Of a stretch of DNA of 64,000 bases, positions 1,428-3,557 are shown one piece after another. The notes under the pieces were generated by a model, which saw nothing but the letters and a program-made list of their open reading frames with translations, did no database searches and was not told the origin of the DNA. Location: IMG/VR virus record IMGVR_UViG_3300037575_000021, positions 31,314-95,313 of that record; one strand, given 5' to 3'. Positions within the stretch are counted from its first letter, which is position 1. Every line of letters starts with the position of its first letter. Source of the stretch: a virus. Position numbers and translations under genes: made by a program.

Positions 1428-2894
1428 CTAGAACGAATAACGTTCTTTGTTAACTGTCTCCAACATCATATCAATTGGCGTTACGTTCTTGCAAGACAAG
1501 ATTGAACGCATGATAGCTGGTGAGAAACCACTTACTAGTGCAGCCCCTTTGTCATTAACAGTCACAGAGCTGTTACCCTCACGAGCTTTAATGTTCCAGA
1601 AGATGATATCAGGTAGTTCATATCCAGCTTCTTGGTATGCACTACTTGCGTACTGTAAGGCTGTCTTATTCCACTTGCCAGCATCGTGACGACCACCGTA
1701 TCCGTAAGAGTTGCCACCTGTACATGAGTCAAACTCCATGTCACTTAAGATCAAGATCTTAGTTGGCATTTCCTCTTGAGGAACTCCTGCTCGTACTGCG
1801 TTGTCAAGCACTGTTTGGAACGCTTTGGCGATATCAGTATTCATACCCCAACCAGAACGTTTGCACTGAAGCATACGATCATACAGGCTCCCGTTCAACT
1901 TAACGAGTTGTGGGCTGCCAGAGAACGTTAAGAATGTATCCTTAAACTTACCTTCAAGTCGTTCTGAGATGTATAAGCCTAAGCTCACAGCTACATCCAT
2001 ACAGGTAACAGTACCGCTTCCGCCTGCAGAGCAACCCATAGATCCACTCACATCTACCATTGGTAGGATTCGTTCATCAGAACCTCCTAGGTAATCTGGT
2101 AAAGCATCCCACTGAGCATTAGCCGCTTGTGACTCACCACGTACCATAGACTTCATGATATCGTATGGGTAAACAGCTCCAGCGTTGATCTTAACTGACT
2201 TAGCAATTTCAGGATCTTTGCTAGTCAATGCATCTAAGTATGCACGGTAACGATCTTCGCAGTTACGTAAGAATGCTTTCTGATAACGTGCTGAAGCAAC
2301 TGAAGGTAGCTTCGAGAAATCGATAGAATCGAAATCCTTAGCTGATAACTTCTGCTCAACTGTATCAGACAAGTTCTTAAGGGCTACACGCCACATCTTA
2401 GGTGTGATGTATCGACCTGTAACTTCCTGAACGTGCTTACGAAGCCCGTTAGCAATTTTCTTCTGACGAGGCATCCACTTGGCACACAGACCATCTTTAG
2501 CCTCTAATGCTGTACGGATCATCTCGTATGCAGCATACTTTGTCTTTTGGTTGGTGAAGACCAATAGGTCATCCCAACGACCAACCTCAGGAATCAAATG
2601 CATGAAGCGTAGAACCTGCGAAGGATCTGTCTTGTCTAGGTACACTAGGAAATCACGGAAAAGTTGGCGTTCACCAGCTCCACCACGAACGTCTCGTGCC
2701 CATAGCATGATTCGGGTTGCTAAATCCTTGTCGCCAGCGTTGTAGGCTGAAGACATAAGATTTACGATATTCTTACCACGAGAGGCACCCACTGCTCCAA
2801 ATAGATCTACACATGGATCCATTGAAGATAGGTTAGTTTTGCCACCGTTGGCTGTGCGGCCTTCTGTATTAAAGGCCTCCATTAATGATGTCAT
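1428..2894 (-). CDS. DUF2828-family TROVE/Ro60-like protein with C-terminal vWA domain
   Basis: Motifs RDVRGGAGER, GRWDDLL, AKWMPR, KINAGAVYPYDI; MIDAS-like DVSGSM; SDMEFD; FWN; VSGFS; GGAGG RBS. Confidence 0.85.
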   Translation of the reverse strand: MTSLMEAFNTEGRTANGGKTNLSSMDPCVDLFGAVGASRGKNIVNLMSSAYNAGDKDLATRIMLWARDVRGGAGERQLFRDFLVYLDKTDPSQVLRFMHLIPEVGRWDDLLVFTNQKTKYAAYEMIRTALEAKDGLCAKWMPRQKKIANGLRKHVQEVTGRYITPKMWRVALKNLSDTVEQKLSAKDFDSIDFSKLPSVASARYQKAFLRNCEDRYRAYLDALTSKDPEIAKSVKINAGAVYPYDIMKSMVRGESQAANAQWDALPDYLGGSDERILPMVDVSGSMGCSAGGSGTVTCMDVAVSLGLYISERLEGKFKDTFLTFSGSPQLVKLNGSLYDRMLQCKRSGWGMNTDIAKAFQTVLDNAVRAGVPQEEMPTKILILSDMEFDSCTGGNSYGYGGRHDAGKWNKTALQYASSAYQEAGYELPDIIFWNIKAREGNSSVTVNDKGAALVSGFSPAIMRSILSCKNVTPIDMMLETVNKERYSF

Positions 2895-2924
2895 GATTGA
2901 CCCTCCTATTTATATTGAGTTTAT

Positions 2925-2953
2925 ATGGTAACACATTTTGTGTTGGTTGTCAA
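2925..2953 (-). promoter_or_regulatory. sigma70-type promoter for the DUF2828 gene
   Basis: TTGACA-N17-TACCAT. Confidence 0.6.
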
Positions 2954-2960
2954 TAGGTTC

Positions 2961-3026
2961 TGAGCAATTTTTGCTTTTCAAGGCTTCCAATAGTTTTGAA
3001 AATAGTATTTTTGCTGAAGTTGCTCA
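2961..3026 (-). ncRNA. Y-like RNA unit A (terminal stem, CAGCAA motif, internal hairpin)
   Basis: TGAGCAA-CTTCAGCAA...TTGCTCA; internal stem TTTTCAA/TTGAAAA. Confidence 0.65.
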
Positions 3027-3044
3027 TTAGTTCTAAATTGTATC

Positions 3045-3108
3045 AGGGCAAATCCTAAACGTAGTTTGATTAAAAGTCAAATGTTTTGGGTATTGCTGTA
3101 GTTGCCCT
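3045..3108 (-). ncRNA. Y-like RNA unit B carrying a tRNA-Lys(UUU) anticodon stem-loop
   Basis: AGGGCAA-CTACAGCAA...TTTGA-CTTTTAA-TCAAA...TTGCCCT. Confidence 0.7.
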
Positions 3109-3165
3109 TTAAGTATTTATCTAGTATAAGCCCTCGTGGGAAGACCTATAGTGGATAATTAAGTC

Positions 3166-3255
3166 AGGCTAATTTGTTTGCACCATTGCAATCTCCAAAG
3201 TTGGCTGGAAATAAAGGAATCGAACCTCTAAAGTTATGTTTGCTGTAGTTAGCCT
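3166..3255 (-). ncRNA. Y-like RNA unit C with a permuted, degenerate tRNA-like domain
   Basis: AGGCTAA-CTACAGCAA; T-arm AGAGG-TTCGATT-CCTTT; acceptor-like ATTTCCA-GCCA...TGGAGAT; D-like TGCAATGGTGCA; closing TTAGCCT. Confidence 0.7.
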
Positions 3256-3267
3256 TTAAATTGTTTC

Positions 3268-3403
3268 AGGTTCCTGTTGTTTGCGTCTGCTGCTCTACCA
3301 ACTGAGCTACCCCTTGTCAATGTAAGTTTAAGTGGTCAAGGGGGCTGGACTCGAACCAGCGACCAACAGTATCCATTAGCATTATTGTTGCTGCAAGGAA
3401 CCT
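3268..3403 (-). ncRNA. Y-like RNA unit D with a complete circularly permuted tRNA body (YrlA-like architecture)
   Basis: AGGTTCCT-TGCAGCAA; tRNA 3' half (TGGTC-GCTGG-TTCGAGT-CCAGC-CCCCTTG-A-CCA) precedes the 5' half (CAAGGGG-TA-GCTCAGTTGGTAGAGC-A-GCAGAC); closing AGGAACCT. Confidence 0.8.
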
Positions 3404-3425
3404 TTAAATCTTTATCTTGGTGCCC

Positions 3426-3453
3426 ATTATACATACTTTGATGTAAAAGTCAA
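3426..3453 (-). promoter_or_regulatory. sigma70-type promoter upstream of the ncRNA array
   Basis: TTGACT-N16-TATAAT with an AT-rich upstream element. Confidence 0.7.
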
Positions 3454-3471
3454 GCACTTTTTAAATTAATT

Positions 3472-3557
3472 TGGCGGAAGATATAGGATTCGAACCTATG
3501 CACCGTTTCCGATGTACTCCTTAGCAGGGAGCTGCGTTACCACTCTGCCAATCTTCC
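3472..3557 (-). tRNA. tRNA-Ser(GCT)
   Basis: GCTCC-CTGCTAA-GGAGT; long variable arm; GCCA end. Confidence 0.9.

What the first reader, a model, noticed from the sequence alone, without database searches (positions are those of the whole stretch)
3268..3403. Complete circularly permuted tRNA body with internal CCA and no anticodon
Seen: the 3' half (anticodon-stem strand, 5-nt variable loop, canonical T-arm, acceptor strand CCCCTTG, A, CCA) comes before a 16-nt linker and then the 5' half (CAAGGGG giving a perfect 7-bp acceptor stem, a canonical D-arm, GCAGAC). The anticodon loop is replaced by the CAGCAA-bearing terminal stem. From memory, the D-arm (AGCTCAGTTGGTAGAGCAG) and variable region (TTGGTCGC) match enterobacterial tRNA-Lys, although this D-arm is shared with other tRNAs. 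Inference: RNase P plus 3' trimming of the linker would give a two-piece RNA with a free CCA that could be charged or act as a tRNA decoy. tRNA scanners would miss it or call it a pseudogene.
Basis: partly seen in the sequence, partly recalled or inferred. Interest (0 to 1): 0.85.

Follow-up and report, generated by a model that had tools for sequence, protein, structure and literature searches.

The report
Phage Y RNA shaped like tRNA
This 136-base stretch is a small non-coding RNA gene of an uncultured phage that folds like a tRNA opened at the anticodon end and joined at the acceptor end; it is most likely one of four partner RNAs of the Ro60-like protein encoded next to it, so it is an uncatalogued branch of a known RNA-protein particle, not a new kind of tRNA.

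Summary
On the minus strand, 3403-3268 holds a complete tRNA body in permuted order: T arm, 7-bp acceptor stem, ACCA, 16-nt linker, D arm, and no anticodon loop. tRNA scanners miss it.

It is a Y RNA of the YrlA type. Rfam YrlA matches the tRNA-like core (43.5 bits, E 2e-8, below the family cut-off). It is the first of four tandem units, each with a closing stem followed by CAGCAA. The units lie between a sigma-70-like promoter and a 488-aa DUF2828 gene whose model matches only Ro60 structures.

A model of this handle hits only these four units in the 95-kb phage genome. In 84 other DUF2828 loci all 97 hits are on the gene's strand, in phages of Gram-negative, Gram-positive and actinobacterial hosts. 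The canonical Ro60 motif GNCGAA is absent, and I found the handle in neither Rfam nor the papers searched.

The encoded ACCA and 7-bp stem suggest RNase P nicking, as shown for M. smegmatis YrlA. Relatives keep NCCA while the stem covaries, and Citrobacter phage Ci1 has the same parts in normal tRNA order ending in CCA. Cleavage and function are inferred.

This scan has noted the same RNA class on many other genomes.

The parts
3426..3453 (-). Sigma-70-like promoter (TTGACT, 16 nt, TATAAT). The predicted start lies about 15 nt before unit 1.
   Evidence: 11 of 12 matches. The same promoter sequence heads the array in relative L009. It is a consensus match only; no transcript data.
3268..3403 (-). 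Unit 1, the finding: a Y-like RNA made of a closing stem, CAGCAA and a permuted tRNA-like body.
3388..3403 (-). Handle, 5' part: stem strand AGGTTCCT (3403-3396), then TG, then CAGCAA (3393-3388).
   Evidence: T-N-CAGCA is invariant in 35 aligned units. The handle model hits this part at E 0.06.
3344..3369 (-). Anticodon-stem 3' strand (3369-3366), 5-nt variable loop (3365-3361) and T arm (3360-3344).
   Evidence: Rfam YrlA alignment; T stem 100% paired in 13 units.
3333..3343 (-). Acceptor 3' strand CCCCTTG, discriminator A and encoded CCA.
   Evidence: In L009/L010 the stem changes with two compensated pairs while ACCA is kept.
3317..3332 (-). 16-nt linker, the proposed 5' leader for RNase P. 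It is 11 nt and largely different in L009/L010.
   Evidence: Cleavage is inferred.
3287..3316 (-). Acceptor 5' strand CAAGGGG (3316-3310), U8 and A9, D arm (3307-3292), A26 and anticodon-stem 5' strand (3290-3287).
3268..3286 (-). A-rich 3' side of the internal loop (3286-3276) and handle 3' strand AGGAACCT (3275-3268), followed by G.
   Evidence: A similar GCAAA-type 3' side is seen in units 2 and 4 and in Ci1.
3166..3255 (-). Unit 2: same handle, carrying a T arm, a 7-bp acceptor stem with GCCA and a 4-nt linker, and a small hairpin. Its 3' half matches the phage's own tRNA-Pro 23/26.
   Evidence: (E 1e-5). In L009, pair 1-72 is compensated and GCCA is kept.
3045..3108 (-). Unit 3: same handle, carrying a short hairpin with a 7-nt CUUUUAA loop.
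   Evidence: E 2.5e-8; identical in L009.
2961..3026 (-). Unit 4: same handle, with a small payload.
   Evidence: E 1e-6.
1428..2894 (-). 488-aa DUF2828/DUF7788 protein with a Ro60 fold (HEAT-repeat ring plus vWA domain with a DxSxS MIDAS motif). It is the proposed protein partner and has its own promoter-like site at 2953-2925.

Best explanation
The stretch is a gene for a Y-type non-coding RNA. It is one of four made from one transcript that starts at the promoter at 3453-3426.

Its two ends pair into an 8-bp stem. That stem, with the adjacent single-stranded CAGCAA, forms a conserved handle that is bound by the Ro60-fold DUF2828 protein encoded 374 nt downstream. The rest of the RNA is a payload: a tRNA body (acceptor, D and T arms, variable loop) with the handle in place of the anticodon loop, as in bacterial YrlA.

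The acceptor stem has the full 7 pairs and is followed by an encoded ACCA and a 16-nt linker. I therefore expect RNase P to cut before C3316 and exonucleases to trim the linker back to CCA. The result would be a nicked, two-piece RNA with a tRNA-like free end, held together by the acceptor, anticodon and handle stems.

The particle would then present a tRNA look-alike to some host factor that recognises tRNA bodies or ends. It could tether that factor to the Ro60-like ring or titrate it, probably as part of phage counter-defence.

Shown here: the anatomy, the family relation, the association with the protein gene, the covariation and the Ro60 fold. Inferred: protein binding, cleavage and function. 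My odds are about 0.9 for the identity as a partner RNA of the Ro60-like protein, about 0.55 for the nick, and about 0.3 for a counter-defence role. The confidence given for this entry (0.55) is for identity and nick together.
For: Identity:
- Rfam YrlA matches the tRNA-like core, 43.5 bits, E 2.3e-8.
- The T, acceptor and D helices covary across 13 units that were chosen by their handle, not by these helices.

Protein:
- Pfam DUF2828 plus DUF7788; PHROG 850 'RNA-binding protein'.
- AlphaFold model pLDDT 77.7. The top 13 Foldseek PDB hits are all Ro60/TROVE over the full length, E 4e-9 to 7e-5.

Handle:
- All four units share the closing stem and CAGCAA.
- The handle model R1 hits only these units in the whole 95-kb genome.
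- 81 of 81 hits in 79 other DUF2828 loci are on the gene's strand, mostly within about 450 nt of the gene.
- 16 of 16 hits are on the gene's strand in Mycobacterium, Listeria, Staphylococcus, Campylobacter and Bacillus phages that were not in the seed.
- A simple stem-plus-CAGCA descriptor finds 143 units on the gene's strand, 66 on the other strand and 53 +/- 7 in shuffles.

Nick:
- M. smegmatis YrlA is a published precedent.
- In L009/L010 five of the 14 acceptor bases differ with pairing kept, and the linker goes from 16 to 11 nt, yet ACCA is kept. The same holds for unit 2.
- Long acceptor loops (7-20 nt, NCCA included) all start with NCCA right after a 6- or 7-bp stem. Closed loops are 4-10 nt and have no CCA.
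- An IMG/VR pattern scan that required no handle returned one clean permuted unit with GCCA (L181). It turned out to have both the handle and a DUF2828 gene 5 kb downstream on the same strand.
- Ci1 and L011 carry the same parts in normal tRNA order, ending in NCCA, with the handle closed by a loop.
- 19 of the phage's 20 called tRNAs also encode CCA.

Function:
- Deleting the Ro60-like gp130 of Bas63, which lies directly upstream of that phage's tRNA genes, sensitises it to the Ppl defence (bioRxiv 10.1101/2024.10.10.617714).
- The Ro60 of phage phiLo with its Yrl RNAs binds host PNPase (PMC12135203).
Against: - There are no expression, binding or cleavage data for this RNA or for any CAGCAA-handle RNA.
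- The YrlA score is below Rfam's cut-off (69 bits) and covers only model positions 23-89. The published Ro60-binding motif GNCGAA(N)G is absent.
- The partner is not a Pfam TROVE protein. Sequence searches against the PDB gave nothing, or only E 0.04 with a profile.
- Many relatives have closed acceptor loops, so a free end is not needed for the class.
- ACCA conservation rests on few lineages. ACCA and the linker could be a relic of how the permutation arose.
- Position +1 is C and position -1 is A. From general knowledge of RNase P, neither is the preferred base.
- The 35 units used for the handle statistics were chosen by pairing, so their 97.7% pairing is partly circular.
- That Bas63 gp130 belongs to this protein family is inferred from synteny and fold. 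I did not check it by alignment.
Confidence: 0.55

Rival explanations
1. It is the same Y-like partner RNA of the Ro60-like protein, but the acceptor end stays a closed 20-nt loop. On this view ACCA and the linker are only a relic of how the permuted gene arose. Two tandem copies of a normal-order handle-bearing tRNA-like gene existed, and the stretch running from the handle of copy 1 to the handle of copy 2 was kept, so the 3' CCA and the intergenic spacer ended up inside.
For: - Normal-order versions ending in NCCA, 6 nt apart, exist next to a permuted one in L011.
- Unit 2's 3' half, CCA included, looks copied from the phage's tRNA-Pro (23/26).
- Most YrlA RNAs and many units here have closed loops.
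- S. Typhimurium YrlA and D. radiodurans Yrn1 are not cut by RNase P.
Against: - NCCA is kept in the most variable part of the unit while the stem and linker change.
- Every long loop starts with NCCA at exactly positions 73-76 after a 6- or 7-bp stem, in at least three lineages.
- A 7-bp acceptor stem stacked on a T arm with 3' RCCA is the classic RNase P substrate.
- The one YrlA known to have 7 pairs is cut in vivo.
Confidence: 0.3
2. It is a true circularly permuted tRNA gene, as in the red alga Cyanidioschyzon merolae. The precursor would be circularised and re-opened at the acceptor end to give a working, decoding tRNA.
For: The gene order (3' half, CCA, linker, 5' half) is the same. The YrlA structure paper itself raises this resemblance.
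Against: - Joining the ends gives an 8-bp stem with a 26-nt and an 11-nt internal loop, not a 5-bp stem with a 7-nt anticodon loop. No anticodon can be named.
- The ends carry a handle shared with three neighbours that hold no tRNA body.
- From general knowledge, bacteria and phages are not known to have the splicing endonuclease and ligase route that this needs. The phage encodes no RtcB or T4-type RNA ligase.
Confidence: 0.02
3. It is debris: the 3' half of one decayed tRNA gene and the 5' half of the next, with no function of its own.
For: Adjacent tRNA genes give the same linear pattern.
Against: - The two acceptor strands pair perfectly with each other and stay paired through compensated changes.
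- The ends form the conserved handle.
- The YrlA model fits.
- All tertiary-contact bases are intact.
Confidence: 0.03
4. It is a two-piece (permuted) tmRNA-like RNA for ribosome rescue.
For: There are weak Rfam hits to permuted tmRNA families over the T arm and acceptor region only (E 0.11 to 8.7). The gene order is the same as in permuted ssrA.
Against: - ARAGORN finds no tmRNA.
- There is no tag reading frame and no pseudoknots.
- A full D arm is present.
- G3-U70 is absent in the window copy.
- The scores are far below the cut-offs (10-14 bits against 47-84).
Confidence: 0.01

Closest known systems
YrlA Y RNAs with Ro60/Rsr, as in S. Typhimurium and M. smegmatis (Chen et al. 2014, PMC4201824; Rfam RF02553; structure in bioRxiv 10.1101/312249)
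   Same: - The ends pair into a protein-binding stem.
- The payload is a tRNA body in permuted order with no anticodon loop.
- It is encoded next to, and on the same strand as, a Ro60-fold gene, together with smaller sister RNAs.
- M. smegmatis YrlA also has a 7-bp acceptor stem, is cut by RNase P and ends in CCA.
   Different: - The stem motif is CAGCAA, not GNCGAA(N)G.
- The partner is DUF2828/DUF7788, not a Pfam TROVE protein.
- CCA is encoded here, whereas in M. smegmatis the final CA is added after cutting.
- The RNA scores below the Rfam cut-off.
- It is part of an array whose units are shuffled between close relatives.
Ro60 of Thermus phage phiLo with Yrl1/Yrl2 (PMC12135203; PDB 9KOP, 9L5Y)
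   Same: A phage-encoded Ro60-fold protein with Y-like RNAs encoded just upstream. It is the best structural match to the protein here.
   Different: The phiLo RNAs were picked by the CGAA motif, and the paper does not describe them as tRNA-like. Sequence identity in the structural alignment is 16%.
Bas63 gp130, a Ro60-like protein of a Felixounavirus (bioRxiv 10.1101/2024.10.10.617714)
   Same: A Ro60-like gene directly upstream of the phage tRNA cluster, as in FelixO1 and here. The authors guessed that some of the 'tRNAs' are Y RNAs.
   Different: No RNA partner was identified there. Here four handle RNAs are found among the FelixO1 tRNA genes. Membership of gp130 in this family was not checked by alignment.
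Circularly permuted tRNA genes of Cyanidioschyzon merolae and some green algae and archaea (Soma et al. 2007, as cited)
   Same: The 3' half with its acceptor strand comes before the 5' half, with a linker between them.
   Different: Those genes mature into decoding tRNAs through a circular intermediate. Here there is no anticodon loop, and the ends carry a protein handle.
Two-piece tmRNA (permuted ssrA)
   Same: A permuted gene with an internal CCA that is processed into two base-paired pieces.
   Different: There is no tag frame, no pseudoknots and no SmpB context. A full D arm is present.

Membership tests
YrlA-type Y RNA (Rfam RF02553; Chen et al. 2014) | tRNA-like domain with T, acceptor and D arms in permuted order and conserved D and T stems | tested here: met
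   cmscan alignment to model positions 23-89, E 2.3e-8; covariation of all three helices.
YrlA-type Y RNA (Rfam RF02553; Chen et al. 2014) | Score at or above the Rfam gathering cut-off (69 bits) | tested here: not met
   43.5 bits. The stem parts of the model (positions 1-22 and 90-114) do not align.
YrlA-type Y RNA (Rfam RF02553; Chen et al. 2014) | GNCGAA(N)G motif near the 5' end, the proposed Ro60/Rsr contact | tested here: not met
   Read from the sequence: the 5' part reads stem, TG, CAGCAA. The only CGA in the unit is in the T loop.
YrlA-type Y RNA (Rfam RF02553; Chen et al. 2014) | Encoded within 4 kb of a Ro60 orthologue, on the same strand | tested here: met
   The gene at 2894-1428 lies 374 nt downstream on the same strand and has a Ro60 fold by Foldseek. 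Caveat: the Pfam families are DUF2828/DUF7788, not TROVE.
YrlA-type Y RNA (Rfam RF02553; Chen et al. 2014) | Bound by the Ro60 protein; carries tRNA modifications (psi55, D) | not testable with these tools
   Needs co-purification and modification mapping.
CAGCAA-handle RNAs beside DUF2828 genes (class defined here and in earlier notes of this scan; not in Rfam 15) | Closing stem of 7 or more pairs, 1-4 nt, CAGCAA, and G after the 3' strand | tested here: met
   8-bp stem, TG, CAGCAA, then G. Model R1 hits the 5' part at E 0.06; the 120-nt payload weakens the full hit.
CAGCAA-handle RNAs beside DUF2828 genes (class defined here and in earlier notes of this scan; not in Rfam 15) | Same strand as, and close to, a DUF2828 gene, usually in an array | tested here: met
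   97 of 97 hits in other loci are on the gene's strand.
Permuted tRNA gene (Cyanidioschyzon type) | Joining the ends restores an anticodon stem-loop, with a bulge-helix-bulge splice motif | tested here: not met
   The ends form an 8-bp stem with large internal loops and there is no 7-nt anticodon loop.
Two-piece tmRNA | Tag reading frame, pseudoknots, and detection by ARAGORN or the Rfam tmRNA models | tested here: not met
   No tmRNA by ARAGORN; 10-14 bits against cut-offs of 47-84.
RNase P substrate (bacterial pre-tRNA-like) | 7-bp acceptor stem stacked on a 5-bp T stem, a 3' RCCA and a single-stranded 5' leader | tested here: met
   Sequence features are present. Actual cleavage is not testable here.

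The most novel reading that the evidence does not exclude
DUF2828 proteins (thousands of members, in FelixO1-like, T4-like, Listeria, Staphylococcus, Campylobacter, Bacillus and mycobacterial phages) form a second, undescribed branch of the Ro60/Y-RNA particle. This branch has its own universal RNA handle (stem plus CAGCAA) and swappable payloads that display parts of tRNAs.

Unit 1 is the form in which a whole tRNA body is nicked by RNase P to expose a genuine ACCA end. On the ring it would serve as bait for host anti-phage enzymes that attack or mark tRNA bodies or 3' ends.
Probability: 0.3. Interest if true: 0.8.

Novelty: new variant of a known kind. Interest (0 to 1): 0.6.

Why it matters
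What the tRNA-like domain of bacterial Y RNAs does has been open since 2014.

Here the same idea appears in phages with a different protein family and a different, very conserved handle. The payloads range from a full tRNA body with an encoded CCA end to a bare acceptor/T minihelix and an anticodon-like hairpin. Close relatives swap and reshuffle these units. That points to tRNA mimicry itself as the selected property.

It also supplies the missing RNA partners for a Ro60-like phage protein that was recently reported to counter a bacterial defence system. The handle gives a simple way to find such RNAs, which annotation pipelines now skip or label as pseudo-tRNAs.

Cultured phages that carry the system (FelixO1/Bas63, Ci1, Listeria P100-like phages) make the binding, cleavage and defence questions directly testable.

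Tried and rejected
- Minimum-free-energy folding of the unit and of its core gave z-scores of only -1.5 and -1.3 and missed the D stem. It is not useful as evidence here.
- A single-sequence search of the protein against the PDB found nothing. A profile search gave only E 0.04 to TROVE chains. The fold search was needed.
- blastn of the RNA region against cultured phages found only a 73-nt match in Bacillus phage G.
- The metagenome scan returned only the same 95%-identical relatives. Direct orthologue comparison of unit 1 therefore rests on two alleles.
- My first reading of L011:4447-4650 and L003:3552-3639 as permuted units was wrong. ARAGORN with introns and the Rfam tRNA model show they are normal-order tRNA-like genes with a closed handle hairpin. 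The stems I had paired came from the repeated hairpin sequence.
- The phage has no RtcB, Rnl2 or T4 Rnl1 (the Rnl1 control rang nowhere, so that one is uninformative). RNA-repair coupling is not supported for this phage.
- A tRNA-Lys origin of the body was rejected as stated, because only the D-arm half fits.
- The supplement of Chen et al. 2014 and the 2020 Annual Review (PMC10870794) are not held. I could not check which 22 phages they listed.

Full report
**What is there.**
All ten tRNA genes that the scanners call in this window lie on the minus strand, and the finding must be read on that strand too. From 3403 down to 3268 the RNA-sense sequence runs as follows:
- an 8-nt stem strand, then TG, then CAGCAA
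- 18 unpaired nt
- four pairs' worth of an anticodon-stem 3' strand
- a 5-nt variable loop
- a canonical T arm
- the acceptor 3' strand, a discriminator A and CCA
- a 16-nt linker
- the perfectly complementary acceptor 5' strand
- U8 and A9, then a canonical D arm
- the anticodon-stem 5' strand
- 11 A-rich nt
- the complement of the first 8 nt

Every base that makes the standard tertiary contacts of a tRNA is present. ARAGORN and the Rfam tRNA model at its cut-off do not report it.

**What it is.**
A permissive Rfam scan of 2850-3480 gives one clear match: YrlA (RF02553), 43.5 bits, E 2.3e-8. It covers model positions 23-89, which is the tRNA-like domain only. In the whole 95-kb virus record this is the best YrlA hit.

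YrlA RNAs are the Y RNAs of bacterial Ro60 (Rsr). The literature describes them as resembling circularly permuted tRNAs with a closed acceptor loop and no anticodon loop, with the 5' and 3' ends forming the protein-binding stem (PMC4201824; bioRxiv 10.1101/312249).

The gene 374 nt downstream on the same strand (2894-1428, 488 aa) is Pfam DUF2828 plus DUF7788 and PHROG 850 'RNA-binding protein'. Its AlphaFold model (pLDDT 77.7) matches Ro60 structures and nothing else at E below 1e-4, over the full length. The matches are Thermus phage phiLo Ro60, Deinococcus Rsr, and Xenopus and human Ro60. Isolated vWA domains follow only at E above 1e-3. The RNA therefore sits where a Y RNA is expected.

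**The array and the handle.**
Four adjacent units lie between a sigma-70-like promoter (3453-3426) and a second promoter-like site just before the gene (2953-2925), with no terminator-like site in between. They are at 3403-3268, 3255-3166, 3108-3045 and 3026-2961.

Each unit has a 7- or 8-bp closing stem of different sequence, then 2-3 nt, then CAGCAA, with G after the 3' strand.

I collected short units of this form from other DUF2828 loci and aligned 35 of them. T-N-CAGCA is invariant, and the stem is paired in 97.7% of cells with six of seven pairs changing on both sides. These units were picked by pairing, so that percentage is partly circular.

The less circular tests are these:
- A simple descriptor finds 143 units on the gene's strand, 66 on the other strand and 53 +/- 7 in shuffles.
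- A covariance model of the handle (R1) hits only units 3, 4, 2 and the 5' part of unit 1 in the whole phage genome.
- In 79 other DUF2828 loci (478 kb, both strands) all 81 hits at E 0.01 or better lie on the gene's strand. Most lie within a few hundred nt of the gene's end or start.
- Five phages that were not in the seed were then searched: Mycobacterium Faith1, Listeria LP-125, a Staphylococcus phage, a Campylobacter phage and a Bacillus anthracis phage. All 16 hits are on the gene's strand, in tandem sets in the unannotated gap beside the gene, and each reads CAGCAA.
- FelixO1 carries three short units and one tRNA-like unit among its tRNA genes.

The published Ro60 contact motif GNCGAA(N)G is absent. 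Rfam 15 has no family for the handle, and no paper I could search describes it.

**The tRNA-like payload is under selection.**
I aligned thirteen units chosen by their handle, from the window, L009, L011, FelixO1, phiM7, Faith1 and five metagenomic phages. On that alignment the T, acceptor and D helices in permuted order are paired in 95.6% of cells, against 70% in shuffles and 40-51% when partners are slid. Thirteen of 16 pairs change on both sides, which 0 of 500 shuffles reach. The acceptor stems nearly all differ in sequence, and most have 7 pairs.

**The internal CCA.**
This is the part that goes beyond ordinary YrlA.

In the two close relatives (L009 and L010, protein 95% identical) the rest of unit 1 differs at two positions. 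The acceptor stem, by contrast, differs at five of 14 positions, all keeping pairing: two fully compensated pairs and one A-U to G-U change. The linker shrinks from 16 to 11 nt and is largely different, yet ACCA is unchanged.

The copy of unit 2 in L009 has pair 1-72 switched from U-A to A-U and a 3-nt instead of a 4-nt linker, and it keeps GCCA.

Across all the units seen, the acceptor loops fall into two groups. Loops of 4-10 nt have no CCA. Loops of 7-20 nt (NCCA included) all begin with NCCA directly after a 6- or 7-bp stem: window units 1 and 2, L009 units a, c and 1, the third unit of L011, and L181.

L181 came from an IMG/VR pattern scan that asked only for a T arm, NCCA, a gap and a D arm. 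Among 126 matches it was the one clean self-complementary case. It turned out to carry the CAGCAA handle and to lie 5 kb upstream of a DUF2828 gene on the same strand, inside a tRNA cluster.

Citrobacter phage Ci1 (protein 52% identical) and the similar contig L011 have the same parts in normal tRNA order. These are genes that Rfam's tRNA model scores at 55 bits, with a 7-bp acceptor stem and a 3' NCCA. In them the 7-nt anticodon loop is replaced by about 50 nt holding a hairpin followed by the CAGCA motif. The layout is that of unit 1 with the chain break moved from the handle to the acceptor end. Such genes should mature like tRNAs and so end in a free CCA. In L011 two of them sit next to a permuted unit with ACCA and a 7-nt linker.

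M. smegmatis YrlA is the one characterised YrlA with a 7-bp acceptor stem. It is cut by RNase P in vivo and in vitro, and its 5' piece ends in CCA.

Together these make RNase P nicking of unit 1 the more likely reading, at about 0.55. It remains an inference.

The same data suggest how the permuted gene arose. Take two tandem normal-order copies and keep only the stretch from the handle of the first to the handle of the second. That places the CCA and the spacer inside. This origin is compatible both with cleavage and with a closed loop that is a mere relic, which is the main rival (0.3).

**tRNA identity.**
The T-arm half is best matched by tRNA-Arg at 24/25. The phage's own tRNA-Lys is unlike it. 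The T arm is identical to that of the phage tRNA-Asn. The D arm is simply the conserved YrlA D arm.

Unit 2, in contrast, clearly derives from the phage tRNA-Pro acceptor and T arm, at 23/26.

There is no anticodon and no conserved acceptor identity element. The L009 allele has G3-U70 with A73, but the window has A3-U70. Charging is therefore not supported.

**Function.**
Nothing is shown for this class. These are the leads:
- In Deinococcus, Y RNA tethers Ro60 to PNPase.
- phiLo Ro60 with its Yrl RNAs binds host PNPase.
- The Ro60-like gp130 of the Felixounavirus Bas63 lies directly upstream of the tRNA genes and is needed to overcome the Ppl defence. Its authors guessed that some 'tRNAs' there are Y RNAs.
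- DUF2828 genes sit beside tRNA clusters in very different phages, and sometimes near RNA ligase or RtcB genes. This phage has neither RtcB nor Rnl2.
- Between the window and L009 the units are reshuffled. The window has four units and L009 has eight. The window's unit 2 lies before unit 1 in L009, and a different unit takes its place. The spacers between units are conserved.

I therefore commit to a Ro60-like ring holding tRNA look-alikes that tether or titrate a host factor recognising tRNA bodies or ends, probably in counter-defence. The odds for that last step are low, about 0.3.

**Standing.**
This is a real, conserved RNA gene and a variant of a known kind (YrlA-type Y RNA), not a new tRNA type. 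Four things appear to be unpublished: the DUF2828 partner, the CAGCAA handle, the encoded CCA, and the coexistence of permuted and normal-order forms.

Earlier notes of this same scan describe the same class on many other genomes (146 notes in at least 119 genomes). They are AI notes and not independent evidence. The points of theirs that I rely on I tested here myself.

Noticed in passing
window 3081-3065 (-), inside unit 3: The payload of unit 3 is a 5-bp hairpin with the 7-nt loop CUUUUAA, which looks like a tRNA-Lys(UUU) anticodon stem-loop. It is identical in L009.
   Followed up: no
window 3165-3109 (-), spacer between units 2 and 3: A hairpin in this 57-nt spacer keeps its pairing through several changed stem positions in L009, with a similar loop. 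It may be a processing or termination element inside the array.
   Followed up: no
L009:1850-1947 and L084:1858-1956: A fourth layout: the CAGCAA handle stem replaces the acceptor stem of a normal-order tRNA-like body that keeps its D, anticodon and T arms. ARAGORN calls the L009 one tRNA-Asn(att).
   Followed up: partly
L024:2237-2336, L040:149-280, L046:1095-1197, L052:859-967, L065:1776-1870: A recurrent payload that is not tRNA-like sits on the same handle. It has a conserved 3' block (...GAACCTTTCTGGAGGGGAAAGCAAAAACTCGCC...). Its nature is unknown.
   Followed up: no
window 1394-1316 (-) and 795-690 (-): Two tRNA-shaped genes that ARAGORN and Rfam do not call in the window. One is tRNA-Gly(UCC)-like, with a mismatch at the top of the anticodon stem; its orthologue in L009 (4430-4504) is called. 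The other is tRNA-Ser(UGA)-like, with an oversized D region.
   Followed up: no
L009:1966-2096: The L009/L010 allele of unit 1 has G2-C71, G3-U70 and G4-C69 with A73, the alanine identity pattern used by tRNA-Ala and tmRNA. The window allele has A3-U70 instead.
   Followed up: no
L215:935-1486 (Listeria phage LP-125): A ROOL RNA match (87.4 bits, just under the cut-off of 99.1) lies about 1 kb upstream of the DUF2828 gene and its three handle RNAs. An RtcB-like ligase gene lies 1.3 kb downstream.
   Followed up: no
L003:3552-3639 and L011:4565-4650: In the normal-order handle-bearing tRNA-like genes, the strand before the CAGCA motif can also pair (10-11 bp) with sequence just past the 3' CCA. 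This is an alternative to the local hairpin. It could be chance from the repeat or a switch between two folds.
   Followed up: no
L009:640-1030: L009 has an extra ORF with HNH-like cysteine/histidine motifs between tRNA-Asn and the small conserved ORF. The window lacks it, so it is probably a mobile endonuclease insertion.
   Followed up: no
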